From a virus, in the IMG/VR virus record IMGVR_UViG_3300046059_000013: a stretch of 21,588 nucleotides of DNA. One strand, 5' to 3'. This document shows, one piece after another, positions 4,685 through 20,377 of the stretch. Numbering within the stretch: position 1 is the stretch's first letter; each line of letters starts with the position of its first letter. The notes beneath the pieces were generated by a model that was given only the letters and a program-made list of their open reading frames with translations, searched no databases and had not been told where the DNA came from. Position numbers and translations under genes: made by a program.

Positions 4685-4929
4685 GCATTCCCAGCACTAC
4701 GAGCACGTAAACTACCCCACCCTACTCGCTCACGTCGCTCGCTCCTTGAGGCCGGAGGCTCCGCCTCGAATATGCTGAGGAGGAGGTGAATTGGGAGGAC
4801 GTCGACGTGCACCCCTACACGGAAATCCTTGCAGCCATCGCAAAGAAGAGGAGAGAACACGTGCTCAGCGAGGTTGAGCCTTTGCCGGTGACGGTGGACG
4901 AGGATGTGGAGCCGCGCGTGGAGAAGTGA
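4677..4929 (+). pseudogene. hypothetical ORF broken by about two frameshifts
   Basis: MPKHSQHYEH.. overlaps upstream stop; protein-like LRLEYAEEEVNWEDVDVHPY..VEK* is in another frame. Confidence 0.4.
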
Positions 4930-7050
4930 ACAAGGTCAACGGTAGCCAAGGGGGCTTCCCCTCGCCCCGCTTTCGTAAGGTTTTTGTGCTTGGGGCTTGT
5001 TGGGGGGAGTGGCGCCGGGCCCAGGCACCGACTTTCCACGCTCCACACGCTTCGCGTCTGTACCGTTGGGCTCGGCGCCACCCCCACCACGTTCACAAAG
5101 TTGTCAACACGGTTTGTGGTGAAACAACGCGCAATAAAACCCGAAACCCGAAAACCACGCGCCGCCAGTGACACGCTTCACTTCTTCGCGGGGTGCGGGG
5201 TGCGGGGTGGGGTTGAGGGCAACACGAGGCCCCACGAATAGTTTAGAGCAATTAACAGCGCGGTTAAAAGCAATTTAAGAGCACACGCGCGGCCCCTGGC
5301 AACAAGGGGAAGGGGGACGTGAAACACAGAAAAAGGGAATTGGGGGCCCTCCCGGTTTTGTTGTGTGTATATGTGCTCTTATGTTTATCTTCTTTTGGGG
5401 TTTGGCTTGGTGCTCTATTTTCGGTTTTGTTTGTGTGTTGTGTTTTTGGTTAGAGGGGTTGTGTCCGCGTTGGGTTTGTGTTAGGGGGGTTGTGTGGGTT
5501 TTGTGTTAGTGTTTTGTTGTGGTCTTTGTTGTTGGTAAATGTGTGGTGGTGTTTCCCGGTTAGAGGTTTGCGCGTGGGGTTCTGGTTAGCGCCAAGCCGT
5601 GCAACCCGCAAGGATGGGCGCGTTGGGGCTTCTTGCGGGTTCGCGGCCGTTTTCACCGGTTTGTGGGGTGCTACCCCTACCCCTGGGGGCGGAGATGGGC
5701 GGTGAAAGTGGGTGTGAGTTTTTGCAAGGTTGTCGAGTTTTTGTTAGAAGGGCTCTAGCGGGTGTGGTGGGGGCGATGGGGCGTGTAAAGTGTTTGCATC
5801 ATGGTAGTGTTGTGAAGTTCGATGCGTCAAACCGTTGCGAGTTTGGTCGAAGTGGTTTGAGGTGGGGTCGAATCACGCCTTGAAGCGCCAATCCCCACCC
5901 GCGCTGGGGCCTCTAACCCCGTATTGGCGTTAGAAGCCTCAACGCGGGAAGACGTGGGCGCGTTGGTGGTCTCATGGGGTGGGGTCGGTGAAAGCACGCC
6001 ACGCAAAAACGAGTAATGGGCGGTAGAAGGCTTCTAGCGCCCAGTTTTTACTTTCAATCAACCCTGCGAAGATTATAAGGCATATCAGCTATCTAGGTTG
6101 TCTCGAAGCGGGCGCCCTCACGGGCCCCGCACCGGTCCGGGGGCCAGCCATCCCGGGCCCGCGGCCCCGCCCACGCGCGGGGCCCAAAACGCCACGAGCC
6201 ACCGGCGCGGGCGATGAGCGCCCGCGCGCCCCGTCGCGATGACCCACGGGCCCACCGCCCCCGCCACGCGCGAGGGCCGGGCCCGCTAGGACGCGAGCGG
6301 CACCACAGGCGCGCGCGCGGTGACGCCCGACACGGTCCCAGATCGCCGTCTCTGGAGAGGCCTGACGCCCTGGCGCACGCCCCCCGAGCGCGGGGGCCGC
6401 GCCCGCCCAGCGCAACGCGCGACACCCCGCTCCACCGTCGCCATCATGCCGACCCCAGGGAGACGCGAGGCCCGATCTAGCGTCCGAGCCCCGCCACGCA
6501 CCCGCCATGAGGGCCACCGGCTAGCGACAGGGATCGCATCCGTCACAGGCCACTGGAGGGCATGGGATCGCGCGAGCACGGGACTGGAGGCCCCCGAGCG
6601 GGGACCCCCACGGGCGCGGCCGAACAGGCCGCGACGCGACGATCCGCGACGCCCGCCCACGCGCGCGCGCATGTAATAAGGCACGCGCGCGGGGAGCATC
6701 GCCCAATGCCCGACCCAAACGCCCGGCGCCGAAGCCGCGCCACCCCCCGCCGATTTTAAGGCGGCAAGAGCATGAAAACGTAACTGCCAGAGAAGAGGGA
6801 TCAAACCCAAGGAGGGACTTAAAAACCCTCCGGCGGTGCAAGACCTGGACCAGCGAACAGTTGGACCAGGCATGAAACAAATCATAGCTCTCTCGAACAG
6901 AGAGACGCCTCCCCGAACCGTGGGGCCGAAACCGCTCGGAACCAAACCGAACGAAACCGGCCCCACCTCCTATTTAAACCCGCGCGGGCACCCCCCGCGC
7001 AGGGAATCAGGAGAAACGTTTCAATTTGAGAGAGAAAGAGAGGGAACGCC
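4930..7050. other. long non-coding control region (origin, genome end or early promoter region)
   Basis: only low-complexity shadow ORFs; G/T-rich ~5350-6000, very GC-rich ~6100-6750, A/C-rich ~6770-7050; repeated GTTAGA(A)G and CTAGCG motifs. Confidence 0.65.
6066..6080 (+). promoter_or_regulatory. possible archaeal BRE-TATA element
   Basis: GCGAAGATTATAAGG; other AT islands in GC-rich context at ~6753 (ATTTTAAG), ~6818 (CTTAAAAA), 6971 (TATTTAAA). Confidence 0.3.
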
Positions 7051-8575: not shown

Positions 8576-8977
8576 ATGAACAATTATCCAACGTGCAACG
8601 AACGAATCAACGACGCCTGGCAAACCCGCCGAACAGACCTGGAGAACATTCTTGACGGAGACATCGACCGCGCTCCCGTTGAGAGTCTCGAGGACTATGG
8701 GCTTGCCTTCGACTACGTGCCCAGCAGCCGCGAAGAGAACCGTGCGGGGTATTGGAGATACCAGTTCAGCACCGGCGGCCCCCAAGAAGAACTACGCTGG
8801 TACACCGACCCGAGCGGGGAGATCGTGGACGCCGGGTTCTGGCTCCTCGATTGGTTCGATGGAGCCAGCATGAATGTTAGTGAAGATGAGGTGGTGGAGC
8901 GTGTGCTTGACCGGTTCCGCTGCATGGGCGTTGTGAGCCCGGAAAAGGCGCGGGACGAGGCGAAGTCGTTACTATGA
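8576..8977 (+). CDS. phage-type hypothetical protein (xGGP motif)
   Basis: GAGGA RBS; GYWRYQFSTGGPQEELR...DWFDGA. Confidence 0.85.
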   Translation: MNNYPTCNERINDAWQTRRTDLENILDGDIDRAPVESLEDYGLAFDYVPSSREENRAGYWRYQFSTGGPQEELRWYTDPSGEIVDAGFWLLDWFDGASMNVSEDEVVERVLDRFRCMGVVSPEKARDEAKSLL

Positions 8978-13574: not shown

Positions 13575-16271
13575 ATGAAGGGAGCGAACATTCACAGCGT
13601 GCGCGACGACAAGCTCGATTGGGAGCCCACCAGCGAGCAAGACCACATTTTTCGCGCTATCGCGGACACGACGGACCACGTGTTCGTGCAAGCAAGAGCT
13701 GGTACTGGGAAGAGCACTACAGCCGCCGAAGCCATGCAACGCCTTCCAGGCAGCAACCGCGTGATGTACACCGCGTACAACCGGCACATTCGCGACGAGT
13801 TTGAGGACACCACGCAACCCCCATATGCGCCTAATGACGTGGATGTGAAGACCCTGCACCAGCACGGGCTCGGCGCCGTGTACTGGAAGCACGGGGACGA
13901 GGTCGAAGTGGACGACGAGAACGAAAAGCCGTGGGAGGTGCTTGGCAGCTTCTTCAAAGAGCGCGTGCTCAAGCGCAAGTTCGGCGTCATGAAAACCGCC
14001 GTCAAGCGATGCAAAAGCGACCTGGCCCAAGACAAGGAAGAGGTCGAGGAGGTGCTCTGGCGGTACAACCTTGCCATGGACCTTGACCCGCACGACGGAG
14101 AGGTCGTCGAGGAGATGCCTAACATCCTCGACATGATGGCAGACATGGAGACGTGGGTCACCTTCTCCGACATGGTGTGGCTCCCCGTTCGACACGACTA
14201 TTCGCTAAAGAACTACGACACCGTCTTCGTGGACGAGATGCAGGATCTCTCCCGTTGCCAACGGGAGCTAGTCATGTCTACCGTGCGTAGCGGGCGTATC
14301 ATCGGCCTAGGTGACCCACACCAATGCATCCCTGAAGGTGAGGAGGTTCTGACACCAGATGGATACGTCCCTATCGAGAGCCTCTCCGAGGGCGACAAGG
14401 TAGTTACTGCGTCTGGCAAATCAGAAACGGTACCTATGCCGGTTAACCATGTTGCCAGTAGGGAAGTCCGTGAAGACGAAACCGTCTACGAGTTCAAGAC
14501 CGAAAGTGGGCACTCGTTCCGATGCACTAGCAACCACCAACTATTCGCGCGCCTGAAGCGTGGGTCTGAATCCTACGAAGGTGACTATCACTTCACCTAC
14601 GTCATGAGCGATGGCGGGGGCAACTATAGAATCGGTATAAGCGAGCACCCCGCCCACAGGCTCGGTATCGAGGATGGCGCCGAGTGGATGCAGTTGGTTG
14701 ATGCCAGTAAGTCGAAGCTGGGTGCGATGGAGGCCGAGGACGTACTCTCTTGCCGGTATGGTATCCCACAGCTACCCTTCAAATCTCGCGGCAAGATGGA
14801 CCAGGGCCGAATAGATAGAGTGTTCGATAGACTTGACACGGAATCCGGCTATCGGAAACTCTGCCAAGACCTCGGGCTGGAGCCAAACACCTGGAATCTG
14901 CACAGAGAAGGTGGTGGTAGTAACCGGGTTAAGGTGCATATCAATATGAAGGCTGGCCACCCAGAATACGGTGACCACCTCAGTAAACGAGTACGTGCGG
15001 AAACCAGCATCCCAGAAGCTATTGAAGTCCTCGAAAACATCGACGAAATCCATAGCGGAGCAGCGAGGAGGGGTGGTCGGCGATTCCGAAAGCAGAGTAA
15101 GCACTACCAGAAGATTAAGAAGATAGCCAAGAAGTGCGTAATGGCACTTCGGGAAGCAGGAATCAACGCAATCCTTGAGGAGTCAGCAGCGTTAGCCACT
15201 TGGAGGGAGGGTAGAAGTCAAAAGGTGAAGAAGCTCAACGCAACCAAAGTCGTACCAGGCATGTTCGTTCCTGTGCATGATGATGGTAAGGTCCAATATG
15301 AGAAGGTTGAAGAGAGGCATGTAGTTGAAGAAACAGGGACCGTATATGATTTAGAGGTAGACCTCAACCACAATTACTTCGTGGGTGGGGTGTGCGTGAG
15401 TAACTCGATATACCAATGGCGAGGCGCTGACTCCCAATCTATGAGCAACTTCAAGGACCTGCTTAAAACTAGCCAAAGGGATGTCACGGACCTTTCCCTC
15501 ACGACCACGTTCCGTTGCCCGCGCCGGGTTGTCAAGCTCGCTAGAACCATCGTGCCCGACTACGACGCCTGGAACCAGGCGGGCGAGGGCGTTGTGGACG
15601 AGATGGGCCGCATGATGCTTCCCGAGAACGCCAGGCCCGGGGACTTGGTGTTGAGTCGCAGGAACGCGCCGCTCACCGGGCTCGCGTACGACCTCATCAT
15701 GGACGAGCAACCCGCCGTGGTGCAGGGCCGCTCGCTGCAAAGCGGCCTGGAGCGCATCGTTGAGCGCGCCGTGCCCGTGCAGGGCGGGCGCAACAACATG
15801 GGCGTGAGCGTGGGCGAGATGCTGGACGGGATGCGAGCCTGGCGCAAGAAGCGCGTGCGCAAGCTGGAGAACCGGGGCAAGGAGAGCGCTGTGCAGGCTC
15901 TCATGGACCGTACGCGGTGCGTGAGCACGCTCGCCAGCAAGCTGGACGATGGGAGCACGGCGCAGGATGTGGTGAACGTGATTGACCGCATCTATGGGGA
16001 CGTGGTGGACAGCGACGGTGGGTTCGACCGGGATCGCGTGATCGTGTTGTCGACGGTTCACTCTGCGAAGGGGGCGGAGGCGGGGCACGTGTACCTTGCT
16101 GATACTGCGTGGTTTGACGAGTTGAGCAGTGGCGCGATGAGTCCGAGTGTGCTGCCGGAGGAGGAGCAGAACATCTTGTACGTTGCTGTCACGCGCGCGA
16201 TGGAGCGGTTGACGTTCCTGGGGGGTCCGCCCAGCGTGCTTCGGGAGCCCTATGAGGAGGTTGCCGAGTGA
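13575..16271 (+). CDS. UvrD/Rep-like superfamily 1 helicase, intein-containing
   Basis: ARAGTGKST (I), AYNRHI (Ia), KTLH, VFVDEMQD (II), GDPHQ/SIYQWRGA (III), TFRCP (IV), STVHSAKGAE (V), YVAVTRA (VI). Confidence 0.95.
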   Translation: MKGANIHSVRDDKLDWEPTSEQDHIFRAIADTTDHVFVQARAGTGKSTTAAEAMQRLPGSNRVMYTAYNRHIRDEFEDTTQPPYAPNDVDVKTLHQHGLGAVYWKHGDEVEVDDENEKPWEVLGSFFKERVLKRKFGVMKTAVKRCKSDLAQDKEEVEEVLWRYNLAMDLDPHDGEVVEEMPNILDMMADMETWVTFSDMVWLPVRHDYSLKNYDTVFVDEMQDLSRCQRELVMSTVRSGRIIGLGDPHQCIPEGEEVLTPDGYVPIESLSEGDKVVTASGKSETVPMPVNHVASREVREDETVYEFKTESGHSFRCTSNHQLFARLKRGSESYEGDYHFTYVMSDGGGNYRIGISEHPAHRLGIEDGAEWMQLVDASKSKLGAMEAEDVLSCRYGIPQLPFKSRGKMDQGRIDRVFDRLDTESGYRKLCQDLGLEPNTWNLHREGGGSNRVKVHINMKAGHPEYGDHLSKRVRAETSIPEAIEVLENIDEIHSGAARRGGRRFRKQSKHYQKIKKIAKKCVMALREAGINAILEESAALATWREGRSQKVKKLNATKVVPGMFVPVHDDGKVQYEKVEERHVVEETGTVYDLEVDLNHNYFVGGVCVSNSIYQWRGADSQSMSNFKDLLKTSQRDVTDLSLTTTFRCPRRVVKLARTIVPDYDAWNQAGEGVVDEMGRMMLPENARPGDLVLSRRNAPLTGLAYDLIMDEQPAVVQGRSLQSGLERIVERAVPVQGGRNNMGVSVGEMLDGMRAWRKKRVRKLENRGKESAVQALMDRTRCVSTLASKLDDGSTAQDVVNVIDRIYGDVVDSDGGFDRDRVIVLSTVHSAKGAEAGHVYLADTAWFDELSSGAMSPSVLPEEEQNILYVAVTRAMERLTFLGGPPSVLREPYEEVAE
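14325..15404 (+). mobile_element. 360-aa intein in helicase motif III
   Basis: starts CIPEGEEVLTPDG, block B CTSNHQL, block F VYDLEV..NHNYFV, ends VSN before +1 Ser; removal restores GDPHQSIYQWRGA. Confidence 0.95.
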
Positions 16272-17496: not shown

Positions 17497-19248
17497 ATGC
17501 CTGTCCGCGTCACGGTTAAAGAGAACCAGTTCCAGGTGCACTTGCCTGAGGACCTCGTGCGCGAGCATGATCTGCAACGGGTGCTCCGGGACACGGTTTC
17601 GGGGATTGGAAGGTCGCGGTCCACCGGGGTCGGCATCTTGCAAGCTCAGCGATTAGAGGACTTTGAGGATGCGTGCAGGGAGCGGGGCGTGAGCGTGGAG
17701 TGGGGTGATGAGGCTGGGCGTTTGCGCGGGAAGGCCGTGGAAGCGCTTGACAAGGCCAACGAGAGCGAGGCTGAAAGCGAGGGTGGGGGTGGGTGGTCAA
17801 CGGGGGAGCGCACCGGGAACAAGCTTGGCCGATGCCGCGAGGAACTGTTCACATGGCAACGGGAAGCCGTCAACCAAGCAAAACGCATGGCGGAGAAACC
17901 CTGGAGCCAGGGAGTCCTCCTCGGCGCGTCCATGGGCCTTGGCAAAAGCGTGATGAGCATCCGGTTCCTGGTGGAGCGCTCCTCGTTCCCCGTGCTGTGC
18001 ATCGCCCCCGCCTCCGTGAAACGCCATTGGCGGGAGGAGTGGCTTGCGTGGACCGCGCTCCCCGAGGACGACGTGGCCGTGCTCGACGGGATGAACCCGA
18101 GCATGGACCCGCGCTTGGACGACAAGCTCGTCGTCATCGCGAACTACGCGATTCTCGGGCCACGAAGGGAGAGCCTGGGGGAGTGGGTGCAGGGTGGAGC
18201 GTTGGTGGTGGATGAGTTGCACAAGGTGCGCAACGGGGACAGCCAGCGCGGCAGGCACGTGAACCAGCTCTCGGGCAGGGTGGGCATGGTGCTTGGCCTC
18301 ACGGGCACGCCCATGTTGAACCATCCTAAGGAGCTTCGGCACCCGCTCAAGGTGCTCGGCGCGTTGCAGGGGTTTGGCAGCGGTCAAGGGTTCAACGAGA
18401 TGTTCACGCCTGTGGAGATGCGGCAGCGTCGTGACGGGCGCACGTACCCGGTGTACCATGCGCAGAACCTTGACTTGCTTTCGAGCGTGTTGCGGGCGAC
18501 GTGCCTTGTGCGTGTGCGGAGGGAGGAGGTGCTTGAGGATTTGCCTTCGGTGCAGCGGGATGCGTGGCGTGTGCCGTTGACGAATCGAGCGGATTATGAT
18601 GCTGCGATGAATGATTGGGAGGCGTGGTGCGACGGGGGCGAGGCGGCAAGCACCGCTGAGGCGATTCAACAGCTCTCAGCGGCCCGACGATTAGTGGGGC
18701 AGGGGAAGGTGCCGTTCGTGGTTGACGCCGCTGAAACGGCCTTACAGAACGATGAGCAAGTGGTGGTGTTCGGCCACCACCGCAAAGACGACAACGACGT
18801 GGTCCCCCGCGTCGCTGACAAGCTCGACAACAAGTGGGGTGCCTCGTTGGTCACCGGCGACATGACCACCACGCAACGAGAGAACCAGGTGGAAGCGTTC
18901 GAGCACGGGGACAACAACGTGCTCGTCGCCACCATGGGCGCCGCCGGACAAGGCGTCGAACTGACCGAAGCCACGACCATGGTGTTCGCTGAGCTTGATT
19001 ACCGACCCTTGATTCATGCACAATGCGAAAGCCGGAGTTTCGCTCGGCTTTCGAACCTTCACGGCTTGAAGAGTATTTACATCCTCGCTGAGGACAGCGT
19101 TGACGAGGACTTCTGGGCTATGCTCGACCGGAAGCAAGAGCTTTTCGACCGCGTCATCGAAGGAGAGGACGATGGAGGGTTCCGTGTTGATGACACGGTC
19201 ACCGCGAGCGACGTGATTCGTAAAGTACGACAACGGAGAAATGATTGA
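17497..19248 (+). CDS. SNF2-family (HARP/SMARCAL1-like) SF2 ATPase
   Basis: WQREAV, SMGLGKS (I), APASV..W..E (Ia), VVDELH (II), LTGTP..N (III), VVVFGHH (IV), AAGQGVEL (V), QCESRSFAR (divergent VI). Confidence 0.92.
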   Translation: MPVRVTVKENQFQVHLPEDLVREHDLQRVLRDTVSGIGRSRSTGVGILQAQRLEDFEDACRERGVSVEWGDEAGRLRGKAVEALDKANESEAESEGGGGWSTGERTGNKLGRCREELFTWQREAVNQAKRMAEKPWSQGVLLGASMGLGKSVMSIRFLVERSSFPVLCIAPASVKRHWREEWLAWTALPEDDVAVLDGMNPSMDPRLDDKLVVIANYAILGPRRESLGEWVQGGALVVDELHKVRNGDSQRGRHVNQLSGRVGMVLGLTGTPMLNHPKELRHPLKVLGALQGFGSGQGFNEMFTPVEMRQRRDGRTYPVYHAQNLDLLSSVLRATCLVRVRREEVLEDLPSVQRDAWRVPLTNRADYDAAMNDWEAWCDGGEAASTAEAIQQLSAARRLVGQGKVPFVVDAAETALQNDEQVVVFGHHRKDDNDVVPRVADKLDNKWGASLVTGDMTTTQRENQVEAFEHGDNNVLVATMGAAGQGVELTEATTMVFAELDYRPLIHAQCESRSFARLSNLHGLKSIYILAEDSVDEDFWAMLDRKQELFDRVIEGEDDGGFRVDDTVTASDVIRKVRQRRND

Positions 19249-19633
19249 CATGTCAACGAACTGGAGCGACTACGACGACTGCGACTACGCCAACTGCAAC
19301 GCTCGCCAAGGCGAGCCCTGCACAACCAACGCCGGGAACGTGCGAAACGAAGCGCACGCCAACCGAGACATGCTCAAGCACGCTATCGACCTGGAGGCCG
19401 ACCGCGAGACGTATTTCGCGTACTCCAAAGTGCGAGAGCGCCTCCGCGGCGAAGTGAGCGTGCGCGTTTCGGACGAGGCCACGCGCATCCTTGAAGGGGG
19501 CCTGCTCGCGCTTGTGGACGAATGCGCGGCTATTGCGGAGGAGCTGGCGGAGAAGCGGGACAAGAAAACGATGCAGGGCGAGGAGGCGCTGGACGCGCTG
19601 GCTCGTTATCGTCTTGAGCAGTTGGATGCTTGA
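19241..19633 (+). CDS. zinc-finger (C3H) / histone-fold fusion protein
   Basis: C14-C19-A..GEPC27...H39..R, then SKVRERLR...RVSDEA-(long helix)-KKTMQGEE with the same spacing as HMf RVSDDA...RKTIKAED. Confidence 0.8.
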   Translation: MIDMSTNWSDYDDCDYANCNARQGEPCTTNAGNVRNEAHANRDMLKHAIDLEADRETYFAYSKVRERLRGEVSVRVSDEATRILEGGLLALVDECAAIAEELAEKRDKKTMQGEEALDALARYRLEQLDA

Positions 19634-19870: not shown

Positions 19871-20377
19871 GTGGCTGGTCCCGACCCTCGGAAGCTTGTT
19901 GACGGGGACCCGCTCCCGGATGAGGAGAAGCTCGTGTGGTGGGTTGTCAAAGAGGGGAACATGCGCCGAATCGTGGCGGAGGAGGTTGTTGCTTTGTTTT
20001 CCGTGGATGGGGAGGAGGACAACGCGATTCGGGATGCGGATGTGCCCACGAAGCGGGCTCGTTCCATCTTGTACGACCTGCAAGAGGAGGGGGTGGTGAA
20101 GATGAGCACGGTCACCAAGAAGGAGGAGGTGGTCGGGTTCATGGAGCATCACCATGTTATCTTGTCGCTTCGGAACTTTCGTCGGTGGCGGGAGGAGCAC
20201 GAGTTCAAGCGCTGTCCGTCGTGCGGCGTTTTGAAGGTGCTCACGGACTTTGCGTCAGGGACAGGGCAAGGTAGGGGCGAGGCGTATAGGTGCCTTGAGT
20301 GCCTTCCTAGCGTTGTACAGGGCAAATCAGGGGGAGAGCACGAAGAAGGAAGCGAGCGTGGGGGAGGTGGAGGGTGA
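19871..20377 (+). CDS. putative DNA-binding protein: winged-helix-like region plus C4 zinc finger
   Basis: KRARSILYDLQEEGVV; KRCPSCGVLK..DF...YRCLEC. Confidence 0.7.
   Translation: MAGPDPRKLVDGDPLPDEEKLVWWVVKEGNMRRIVAEEVVALFSVDGEEDNAIRDADVPTKRARSILYDLQEEGVVKMSTVTKKEEVVGFMEHHHVILSLRNFRRWREEHEFKRCPSCGVLKVLTDFASGTGQGRGEAYRCLECLPSVVQGKSGGEHEEGSERGGGGG

What the first reader, a model, noticed from the sequence alone, without database searches (positions are those of the whole stretch)
17497..19633. Viral SNF2 ATPase coupled to a zinc-finger/histone-fold protein: candidate minimal viral chromatin system
Seen: the SNF2 stop (19246-48) overlaps the start of a 130-aa ORF. Its residues ~58-123 align without gaps to archaeal HMf histones from RVS to K/RKT (33-residue spacing, so alpha2 is full length). 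The R-D clamp is K-E, the position of HMf His49 is Lys, and alpha1 has an SKV motif like that I recall in bacterial histones, so it is probably non-nucleosomal. A C-x4-C-x7-C-x11-H finger is fused N-terminally. Established: SNF2 ATPases translocate on dsDNA and remodel protein-DNA complexes. Inference: the finger targets the histone (or a hybrid with host histone) to specific DNA and the ATPase loads, moves or evicts it; alternatively it is a dominant-negative histone mimic.
Basis: partly seen in the sequence, partly recalled or inferred. Interest (0 to 1): 0.9.

Follow-up and report, generated by a model that had tools for sequence, protein, structure and literature searches.

The report
Zinc-finger histone-fold protein in a halovirus
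A virus from a salt-loving host carries a small gene with no detectable relatives that joins a phage-type zinc finger to a full-length histone fold; it is probably a dimeric DNA-binding protein, and nothing beyond gene order links it to the neighbouring SNF2 motor as a "chromatin system".

Summary
ORF 19241-19633 (130 aa, or 127 aa from ATG 19250) follows the SNF2 gene directly. It carries C14-x4-C19-x7-C27-x11-H39, and residues 57-125 align without gaps to archaeal histones.

The histone fold is supported by several tests:
- NCBIfam archaea_histone gives E=9e-4.
- My HMM of 90 archaeal histones gives 14.7 bits. None of 4,997 shuffles reaches that, and the next best window ORF scores 2.5 bits.
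- The nearest ESM Atlas clusters, by features and by structure, are histone families.
- A homodimer prediction scores 0.53 against 0.03 for the best control, with handshake contacts.

Against it, Pfam gives no histone hit, single-sequence AlphaFold models were uninformative, and the protein has no relative among 1.84 billion representatives.

The finger matches Pfam Phage_zn_bind_8 just under threshold.

The "chromatin system" reading is not supported. No histone fold lies in the five SNF2-relative contexts I could scan, and none is annotated in two more. Twelve IMG/VR viral histones are stand-alone, and only one has an SNF2 gene within 8 kb. The SNF2 is the common phage replication-module type.

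Tailed-virus histones and zinc-finger histone fusions are already published. This is a new variant: a full-length, acidic fold with a different finger. Earlier scan notes on this genome did not cover this gene.

The parts
17497..19248 (+). SNF2-family ATPase (P0002, 583 aa), phage replication-module type
   Evidence: Pfam SNF2-rel_dom 9.5e-22 and Helicase_C 9.1e-10, both above cut-off. PHROG phrog_62 'DNA helicase' 4.6e-68. Nearest relatives are at most 35% identical.
19241..19633 (+). Zinc-finger plus histone-fold protein (P0001, 130 aa; alternative start ATG 19250 gives 127 aa)
   Evidence: Translation. Codon-position GC and pI match the neighbouring genes. No homologue in any collection searched.
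19235..19238 (+). GGAG, a possible ribosome-binding motif: 2 nt before ATG 19241 and 11 nt before ATG 19250
   Evidence: Read from the sequence. Its function is not tested.
19280..19357 (+). Zinc finger, residues C14 to H39 (C-x4-C-x7-C-x11-H)
   Evidence: Motif read directly. Pfam PF24623 Phage_zn_bind_8 E=1.7e-4, 21.6 bits against a cut-off of 24, residues 14-45 on profile positions 14-44 of 57.
19409..19615 (+). Histone-fold domain, residues 57-125. The first AF2 model gives alpha1 about 58-74, L1 75-78, alpha2 79-107, L2 108-110 and alpha3 from 111.
   Evidence: Gapless alignment to 14 archaeal histones. Custom HMM 14.7 bits, with 0 of 4,997 shuffles reaching it. NCBIfam NF043032 E=9e-4. 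ESM Atlas TM 0.73-0.81 to histone clusters. Handshake homodimer prediction 0.53 against 0.03 for the best control.

Best explanation
ORF 19241-19633 is a real, expressed-type gene for a two-domain protein. The N-terminal 45 or so residues form one CCCH zinc site of the phage 'Phage_zn_bind_8' kind. Residues 57-125 form a full-length histone fold of the archaeal (HMf / NF-Y) type.

The fold most likely makes a handshake homodimer that presents two zinc fingers. This dimer would bind and bend DNA through the retained L1/L2 contact residues (R75, K109, T110) and a basic alpha1, while the finger adds site preference. It probably stops at the dimer and does not build nucleosome-like stacks, because the four-helix-bundle positions are changed (His to K105, Leu to D118) and alpha3 is acidic.

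It sits in the replication and recombination gene run of a halophile tailed virus. That run holds an intein-bearing UvrD-like helicase, the SNF2 translocase and a weak endonuclease-VII-like protein. So its likeliest job is to organise or mark DNA for that module, or to regulate it, as an NF-Y-like 'histone dimer plus sequence reader' in one chain.

Shown: the gene, the finger motif, the statistical likeness to histones, and the predicted dimer geometry. Inferred: zinc binding, DNA binding, staying dimeric, and the role.
For: The gene is real: codon-position GC and acidity match the neighbours.

Histone fold:
- NCBIfam archaea_histone E=9e-4 over residues 62-112.
- HMM of 90 archaeal histones gives 14.7 bits, E=1.3e-6 for one test, aligned 74-116 to model 19-61 without gaps.
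- Zero of 4,997 shuffles reach that score (best 13.1). The next best of 286 window ORFs scores 2.5 bits. hhalign gives P=3.2e-4.
- An HMM of the C-terminal halves of 8 haloarchaeal doublet histones gives 13.7 bits.
- In the ESM Atlas the nearest clusters by features (0.87-0.90) mostly carry histone Pfam families. The Atlas model matches archaeal histone clusters at TM 0.73-0.81 over about residues 55-125.

Dimer: score 0.53 against 0.03 for the best control, runs agreeing in at least 87% of contacts, partner pLDDT at least 74. This mark was reached by 21 of 30 solved homomers and 0 of 23 solved monomers. Contacts are L1 (75-77) with L2 (110-112), alpha2 crossing at 88/91, and alpha3 (113-117) on the partner's alpha2 (80-84). 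These are the handshake positions that the HMfB alignment predicts. Histone dimers are solved, so this pass may reflect likeness only.

DNA contact: the RV of L1 and the KT of the L2 'RKT' motif are kept. PMC13260811 calls these a universal histone signature. Nine of the 13 basic residues in residues 51-130 lie in 63-75 or 105-109 (sequence).

Finger: PF24623 E=1.7e-4.

Module: UvrD-like helicase with intein, SNF2, and phrog_1035 endonuclease VII at E=0.0022.
Against: - Pfam reports no histone family for P0001 even at E up to 10.
- phmmer finds no histone in the PDB.
- phmmer finds none among 1.84 billion representatives at E up to 0.001.
- The NCBIfam score (19.6 bits) is far below its curated cut-off of 50. 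The finger score is below Pfam's cut-off.
- AlphaFold2 without an alignment gave pLDDT 49.6 for the whole protein. For the domain alone it gave a two-helix hairpin with alpha1 and alpha2 fused (pLDDT 77). Fold searches with these models found only generic helical proteins.
- The ESM Atlas search and the ESMFold2 dimer rest on related language models, so they are not independent of each other.
- The domain is acidic overall (pI 4.7). That fits a halophile but leaves DNA binding unproven.
- No experiment or homologue supports any function.
Confidence: 0.55

Rival explanations
1. Accessory DNA-binding subunit of the neighbouring SNF2 translocase. The histone-fold dimer binds the motor and anchors it on duplex or branched DNA. 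MHF1/2 does this for FANCM, and CHRAC-15/17 does it for ISWI. It would be a partner of the ATPase, not its substrate.
For: - The two genes abut or overlap and share a strand.
- Two of seven SNF2 relatives carry a small zinc module (DUF6011). In P0007 it is fused at the N-terminus, and in L121 it is encoded immediately downstream with a 4-nt overlap. So this SNF2 clade recurrently teams with small zinc-binding pieces at the same position.
- FANCM-MHF is an established case of a histone-fold complex serving an SF2 motor (PMC4573851, PMC13479805). CHRAC-ISWI is from my own knowledge.
Against: - DUF6011 (C-x2-C ... C) is a different finger from C-x4-C-x7-C-x11-H.
- None of the SNF2 relatives examined has a histone fold nearby: five were scanned with the HMM and two read from annotation.
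- Tight packing and 4-nt overlaps are general in this gene run.
- No binding prediction was run for this pair, because the single job went to the homodimer.
Confidence: 0.15
2. The finger targets a viral histone to specific DNA, and the SNF2 ATPase loads, slides or evicts it. This would be a minimal virus-encoded chromatin and remodeller pair.
For: - Adjacency.
- SNF2 enzymes remodel protein-DNA complexes (established).
- Liu et al. 2025 (PMC13681535) report a positive association between histones and SNF2-domain proteins in viral genomes.
Against: - The published association was significant only in Megaviricetes (PMC13681535).
- Only 1 of 12 IMG/VR tailed-virus contigs with HMf-like histones has an SNF2-like ORF within 8 kb, and that one lies on the other strand.
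- The SNF2 belongs to the common phage 'DNA helicase' family phrog_62. Its only named eukaryotic relatives in the top list are ZRANB3 annealing helicases, not nucleosome remodellers.
- The tetramer-interface residues are not kept.
- The pair has no conserved counterpart, because P0001 has no relatives.
Confidence: 0.1
3. Histone mimic aimed at the host. The viral fold docks onto host histones or histone-binding factors and disturbs host chromatin or transcription during infection.
For: - Like haloarchaeal histones it is acidic (pI 4.7 against 4.3-5.0 for 8 doublets).
- It scores against the C-terminal half of those doublets about as well as against HMf-type singlets (13.7 against 14.7 bits).
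Against: - Haloarchaeal histones of this class are doublets whose halves pair within one chain (PMC13260811), which leaves no free handshake partner.
- The viral domain is predicted to pair with itself.
- The host is not settled. The helicase's nearest isolates are Salinibacter phages.
- At most about 30-40% identity to any histone tested (29% to the first row of alignment A1; best local matches 18 of 48 and 16 of 41 residues), and no histone reached E 0.001 in the exhaustive search. So this is not a recent capture.
Confidence: 0.07
4. Not a histone fold. It would be a helical dimerisation or coiled-coil domain whose likeness to histones is chance plus composition.
For: - No Pfam histone hit.
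- No histone among PDB or 1.84 billion sequences by phmmer.
- AlphaFold2 on the domain alone gives a helical hairpin at pLDDT 77, which matches coiled coils.
- One shuffle in 4,997 reached 13.1 bits, so the tail for this composition is fatter than HMMER's E-value implies.
Against: - Three separately built profiles hit the same register.
- Zero of 4,997 shuffles reach the observed score.
- The conserved residues fall on the invariant histone columns R, S, A, L, A, A, K, T.
- All ten nearest Atlas structures align over about residues 51-129, and nine of them are histone families.
- The predicted dimer contacts are those of a handshake, not of a parallel coiled coil.
Confidence: 0.13

Closest known systems
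HMf-type archaeal histones and the 'HMf-like viral histone-fold proteins' of Caudoviricetes (Liu et al. 2025, PMC13681535)
   Same: Full-length alpha2 in the same register. The L1 R-V-S and L2 K-T residues are kept. A handshake homodimer is predicted. It is encoded by a tailed virus.
   Different: - At most about 30-40% identity to any histone tested.
- Below every curated family cut-off.
- Acidic.
- Clamp is K/E, not R/D. The tetramer His is K105.
- It carries an N-terminal zinc finger. The 12 IMG/VR viral examples I fetched are stand-alone proteins of 66-88 aa from low-GC contigs.
- The published viral cases were predicted to infect Methanobacteriota, not halophiles.
ZZ histones of bacteria (Schwab et al. 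2024, PMC11390915)
   Same: The same architecture in outline: an N-terminal zinc-binding domain fused to a C-terminal histone fold.
   Different: - ZZ histones have a ZZ domain with two zinc sites (C4 and C2H2). They also have an alpha3-truncated, bacterial-dimer-type fold, and occur mainly in Proteobacteria.
- This protein has one CCCH site of a phage family, a 29-residue alpha2 and a long alpha3.
[quoted passage not shown]
   Same: Histone-fold proteins of tailed viruses with an extra domain.
   Different: Those have an N-terminal alpha3-truncated fold, lack the RxTxxxxD motif, and tetramerise through a C-terminal helix. Here the fold is C-terminal and full length, keeps KxTxxxxE, and the extra domain is a zinc finger.
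NF-Y (NF-YB/NF-YC histone-fold dimer plus the NF-YA sequence reader); from my own knowledge
   Same: It works the same way: a non-nucleosomal histone-fold dimer supplies non-specific DNA contacts and bending, and a separate element supplies sequence choice.
   Different: NF-Y is a eukaryotic heterotrimer, and its reader is a helix and not a zinc finger. No homology beyond the fold family is claimed, and nothing here was tested.
MHF1/2 with FANCM (PMC4573851, PMC13479805) and CHRAC-15/17 with ISWI (own knowledge)
   Same: Histone-fold dimers that serve SF2/SNF2 DNA motors as DNA-binding accessory subunits. Here the genes for a histone fold and an SNF2 motor are adjacent.
   Different: No evidence that P0001 binds the SNF2. 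The pairing is not seen in any relative examined.

Membership tests
Histone fold (Pfam CBFD_NFYB_HMF PF00808 / NCBIfam archaea_histone NF043032) | Profile match at or above the curated cut-off | tested here: inconclusive
   Pfam gives no hit even at E up to 10. NCBIfam NF043032 gives E=9e-4 but 19.6 bits against a cut-off of 50. My own HMM of 90 histones gives 14.7 bits with 0 of 4,997 shuffles reaching it. The match is statistically real but below the curated thresholds.
Histone fold | alpha1-L1-alpha2-L2-alpha3 with a long central helix | tested here: met
   The ESM Atlas model matches histone clusters at TM 0.73-0.81 over about residues 55-125. AF2 on the whole protein gives helices 55-74, 79-107 and 111-129, at low confidence. 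Caveat: AF2 on the domain alone fused alpha1 and alpha2.
Histone fold | Handshake dimer with L1-L2 pairing and crossed alpha2 helices | tested here: met
   Homodimer score 0.53 against 0.03 for the best control, a mark reached by 21 of 30 solved homomers and 0 of 23 solved monomers. Runs agree in at least 87% of contacts and pLDDT is at least 74. Contacts are 75-77 with 110-112, 88/91 with 88/91, and 113-117 with 80-84. This is a prediction only and may reflect likeness to solved histone dimers.
Histone fold | L1 'RV' arginine, L2 'RKTV' motif and R-D clamp (PMC13260811) | tested here: inconclusive
   R75-V76-S77 is present. L2 reads K108-K109-T110-M111. The clamp pair is K108/E115 at the right 7-residue spacing, which is a conservative change at both positions.
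Nucleosomal (hypernucleosome-forming) archaeal histones | Dimer-dimer four-helix-bundle residues (HMfB L46, H49, L62) | tested here: not met
   The alignment gives L102, K105 and D118 (with HMfB numbering from my typed probe that retrieved real histones). Tetramers and larger oligomers were not modelled.
[quoted passage not shown] | alpha3 of 3-4 residues and alpha2 shorter by 4-5 residues | tested here: not met
   alpha2 is 79-107 (29 residues), gapless against HMf-type histones. alpha3 residues up to 124 take part in the predicted interface.
ZZ histones | ZZ-type domain with a C4 and a C2H2 zinc site | tested here: not met
   Residues 1-50 hold only three Cys and one His as candidate ligands (C14, C19, C27, H39), plus H47. 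The only Pfam hit is Phage_zn_bind_8.
Phage_zn_bind_8 (PF24623) | Profile match at or above the gathering score, with the metal ligands in place | tested here: inconclusive
   E=1.7e-4, 21.6 bits against a cut-off of 24, residues 14-45 on profile positions 14-44 of 57. Four ligand candidates are present. Zinc binding was not tested.
SNF2 family ATPase (the neighbouring gene) | SNF2-related N-lobe plus helicase C-lobe above the Pfam cut-offs | tested here: met
   PF00176 77.9 bits (cut-off 24.9) and PF00271 39.2 bits (cut-off 23.5). phrog_62 4.6e-68.
SNF2 plus histone 'viral chromatin system' | The gene pair is conserved across relatives | tested here: not met
   P0001 has no relatives to test. 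No histone-fold ORF was found in the five SNF2-relative contexts scanned with the HMM (L001, L002, L120, L121, L148/L149). A further context with no DNA held shows none by annotation. Only 1 of 12 viral histone loci has an SNF2 within 8 kb.
SNF2 plus histone 'viral chromatin system' | Physical or functional interaction of the two proteins | not tested

The most novel reading that the evidence does not exclude
A site-directed histone in an archaeal virus. The zinc finger would place a full-length histone-fold dimer at chosen sites on viral or host DNA. The co-transcribed SNF2 translocase would either use that dimer as its DNA anchor or move it. This would be a two-gene, virus-encoded chromatin module with no known counterpart in prokaryotic viruses.
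Probability: 0.12. Interest if true: 0.8.

Novelty: new variant of a known kind. Interest (0 to 1): 0.5.

Why it matters
Histone-fold proteins of tailed viruses were described only in 2024-2025. The archaeal-like ones were assigned to viruses of methanogens, and the known zinc-finger fusion (the ZZ histone) is bacterial with a truncated fold.

This would be the first case I can find of three things together: a full-length archaeal-type fold, a phage-type zinc finger fused to it, and a virus from a hypersaline setting.

If the dimer binds DNA at multimolar salt, it would be a compact model for two questions: how a histone fold gains site preference, and how acidic histones contact DNA. It also shows that language-model and directed-profile searches find histone folds that Pfam and exhaustive phmmer miss.

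Its weight is limited because it is a single sequence with no relatives and no functional data.

Tried and rejected
Searches for relatives of P0001 that found nothing:
- tblastn and blastn against 50,697 phage records: no match.
- The 5.8-billion-protein word search: only the protein itself.
- IMG/VR scans with P0001 and with SNF2: no relative.
- Exhaustive phmmer of residues 44-130: itself plus two long repetitive proteins, which I took as low-complexity matches.
- Exact look-up of P0003: not on record.

Structure models that led nowhere:
- AF2 of the whole protein (pLDDT 49.6) and its Foldseek PDB search: nothing at E up to 0.001.
- AF2 of residues 52-130 gave a hairpin, and VIA-align found only generic helical proteins with Z below 8. 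Both are uninformative for a fold that is stable only as a dimer.

Other dead ends:
- Sequencing runs: none was listed, and no RNA holder was listed.
- No whole genome is held for the window.
- Rfam and ARAGORN on the window: nothing.

Host:
- The window's helicase and one other protein hit only bacteriophages, with Salinibacter phages best at 33%. So I did not take 'archaeal virus' as given. The IS605-end-like element shared with most sampled doublet-histone genomes tips it towards haloarchaea.
- The GC-rich stretch 5950-7050 against 151 of those genomes gave only 27-55-nt matches, which I judged to be noise.

Considered and rejected:
- That the DUF6011 finger of SNF2 relatives is the same finger as here. 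The motifs differ.

Slips:
I re-ran it by reference.
Only the real loci it retrieved were used afterwards.
Full report
**What is there**

The window is 58% GC and nearly all its genes lie on the + strand. The predicted proteins are acidic, with pI 4.2-5.7 for 13 of 15 checked.

SNF2 (P0002, 17497-19248) ends in a TGA at 19246-19248. The next ORF begins at ATG 19241, an 8-nt overlap, and runs to 19633 (P0001, 130 aa). A second in-frame ATG at 19250 gives the 127-aa form held in the public protein collection. With that start the genes do not overlap and are 1 nt apart. A GGAG at 19235-19238 suits the second ATG better by spacing.

The frame is coding. GC at codon positions 1/2/3 is 0.66/0.40/0.78, against 0.67/0.42/0.76 for SNF2. 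The pI is 4.6, while the antisense ORF has pI 11.8.

**The finger**

The only Pfam hit of the protein is PF24623 Phage_zn_bind_8, 'putative DNA-binding phage zinc finger'. It gives E=1.7e-4 and 21.6 bits against a gathering score of 24, with residues 14-45 on profile positions 14-44 of 57. I treat it as a probable, diverged member. Zinc binding is inferred.

**Evidence against a histone fold, or silent on it**

- Pfam gives no histone family even at E up to 10.
- phmmer finds no histone in the PDB.
- An exhaustive phmmer of residues 44-130 against 1.84 billion representatives finds only the protein itself and two long repetitive proteins.
- AlphaFold2 without an alignment is poor for the whole protein (pLDDT 49.6). 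Its helices at 55-74, 79-107 and 111-129 do fit the fold.
- For the domain alone AlphaFold2 draws a two-helix hairpin. Fold searches with these models return only generic helical proteins.
- A histone-fold monomer is not a stable unit, so I read these results as uninformative and not as contrary.

**Evidence for a histone fold**

- I fetched real archaeal histone genes and built an HMM from 90 distinct singlets. It scores P0001 at 14.7 bits, E=1.3e-6 for a single test. Residues 74-116 align to model positions 19-61 without a gap.
- None of 4,997 shuffles of the domain reaches that score; the best is 13.1.
- Of 286 window ORFs of 50 aa or more, only this one scores (14.5 bits); the next best is 2.5. 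hhalign gives P=3.2e-4.
- NCBIfam's independently built archaea_histone model gives E=9e-4 over residues 62-112, which includes alpha1.
- An HMM of the C-terminal halves of eight haloarchaeal doublet histones gives 13.7 bits in the same register.
- MAFFT aligns residues 57-125 to 14 histones with no gap. R75, S77, A80, L84, A99, A103, K109 and T110 lie in invariant columns.
- In the ESM Atlas the nearest clusters by features (0.87-0.90) mostly carry histone Pfam families. The Atlas's own model matches archaeal histone clusters at TM 0.73-0.81 over about residues 55-125.
- Two copies of residues 50-130 are predicted to bind, with a score of 0.53 against 0.03 for the best control. That mark was reached by 21 of 30 solved homomers and 0 of 23 solved monomers. 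Runs agree in at least 87% of contacts and pLDDT is at least 74.
- The contacts are L1 (75-77) with L2 (110-112), alpha2 crossing at 88/91, and alpha3 (113-117) on the partner's alpha2 (80-84). These are the handshake positions that the HMfB alignment predicts.
- Histone dimers are solved structures, so this pass shows likeness and not binding. It also shares a model lineage with the Atlas search.

Taken together I put the histone fold at about 0.85.

**What kind of histone fold**

alpha2 is full length (29 residues) and alpha3 is long. [quoted passage not shown] 2024 (PMC11390915).

The 'universal signature' of PMC13260811 is partly kept:
- The L1 'RV' motif is R75-V76.
- The L2 'RKTV' motif reads K108-K109-T110-M111.
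- The R-D clamp is K108/E115 at the correct spacing.

The HMfB tetramer positions L46/H49/L62 correspond to L102/K105/D118. From sequence alone I therefore expect a dimer and not a hypernucleosome.

Basic residues cluster in alpha1/L1 (K63, R65, R67, R69, R75) and at the end of alpha2 and L2 (K105, R106, K108, K109). The rest of the domain is acidic. This suits a halophilic DNA-binding face, but DNA binding remains inferred.

**The SNF2 link**

The SNF2 is a solid family member. It belongs to the widespread phage 'DNA helicase' family phrog_62. Its nearest relatives are at most 35% identical, and the only named eukaryotes in the top list are ZRANB3 annealing helicases. PDB matches are generic SNF2 motors.

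I examined seven relatives in their contigs. None has a relative of P0001. The five whose DNA I could scan hold no ORF matching the histone HMM.

Two relatives carry a different small zinc module, DUF6011. In P0007 it is fused to the N-terminus of the SNF2. In L121 it is encoded immediately downstream with a 4-nt overlap. This is a hint that the clade recruits small zinc-binding partners at this position. It is not evidence for a histone partnership.

In the other direction, 12 IMG/VR contigs with HMf-like histones all encode stand-alone proteins of 66-88 aa. Only one has an SNF2-like ORF within 8 kb, and it is on the other strand.

Liu et al. 2025 found a histone-SNF2 association that was significant only in Megaviricetes (PMC13681535).

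In this window short overlaps between consecutive genes are common, for example 16268/16271 and 16492/16495. So the pair is co-transcribed at most. The 'system' remains an untested idea.

**Host**

No genome is held for the window. Earlier notes of this scan call the 91-kb contig a tailed haloarchaeal virus.

From the window alone the picture is mixed:
- The helicase's nearest isolates are Salinibacter phages at 33%, and the other hits are bacteriophages.
- Window 4701-4783 is an element of about 60-80 nt with a sharp 3' boundary. It recurs at 78-95% identity, often several times per genome, in 323 of 401 sampled genomes of the class that carries acidic doublet histones. I take that class to be Halobacteria (PMC13260811).
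- The element is not a tRNA. It looks like an IS200/IS605 right end or omega-RNA tail, as earlier notes describe elsewhere in this genome.

I take a haloarchaeal host as likely but not shown. If it is right, host histones are doublets that pair within one chain. That argues against a viral-host hybrid dimer.

**Comparison with what is known, and verdict**

- Histone-fold proteins in Caudoviricetes, including HMf-like ones and fusions such as KOW, are published (PMC13681535).
- A zinc-finger histone fusion, the ZZ histone, is published for bacteria (PMC11390915).
- New here: the combination of a full-length, acidic, archaeal-type fold with a phage-type CCCH finger; the hypersaline setting; and the complete lack of sequence relatives.
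- This is a new variant of a known kind, of moderate interest.
- The most likely mechanism is a handshake dimer with two fingers that binds and bends DNA in the replication and recombination module.
- The accessory-subunit and remodeller-substrate readings remain open at low odds.

Noticed in passing
window 4701-4783: An intergenic element of about 60-80 nt, including the palindrome GAGGCCGGAGGCTCCGCCTC, with a sharp 3' end at ...GCTGA. It recurs at 78-95% identity, often in several copies, in 323 of 401 sampled genomes of the doublet-histone class (presumably Halobacteria). It is not a tRNA and has no Rfam family. It looks like an IS200/IS605 right end or omega-RNA tail and serves as a host clue.
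   Followed up: partly
window 6001-7000: A GC spike to 0.70 against about 0.58 elsewhere. It has no plausible acidic + strand ORF, no tRNA and no Rfam match, and only 27-55-nt matches in 8 of 151 sampled genomes. Unexplained.
   Followed up: partly
window 13575-16271: A UvrD-like SF1 helicase interrupted by an intein (Intein_splicing and Hint hits, residues about 249-610). The exteins are closest to Salinibacter and Pseudomonas phage helicases at 30-33% identity.
   Followed up: partly
L120 10001-12916 (P0007 residues about 100-140) and L121 8400-8609: Relatives of the SNF2 carry the small cysteine module DUF6011 (C-x2-C ... C). In one it is fused to the N-terminus, and in the other it is a 69-aa gene overlapping the SNF2 stop by 4 nt. 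This suggests a recurrent SNF2 plus zinc-module partnership of unknown function.
   Followed up: partly
window 19871-20377: A 168-aa protein two genes downstream has C-x2-C ... C-x2-C and a weak match to phrog_1035 endonuclease VII (E=0.0022, residues 87-144). This would fit a recombination module.
   Followed up: no
L125 7499-7756 and 7768-7983: An IMG/VR viral contig (30% GC) carries two adjacent HMf-like histone genes (E 1e-29 and 2e-31), a tandem pair that could form a heterodimer.
   Followed up: no
L130 3501-4868 (-) and 7885-8097 (+): This is the only one of 12 viral histone loci with an SNF2-like ORF nearby (E 7e-23). The ORF lies about 3 kb away on the opposite strand.
   Followed up: no
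window 8576-8977: A 133-aa protein of PHROG phrog_36747 (E 7e-11) whose only isolate relatives are large Vibrio phages at 32-39% identity. This is an odd relative for a halophile virus.
   Followed up: no
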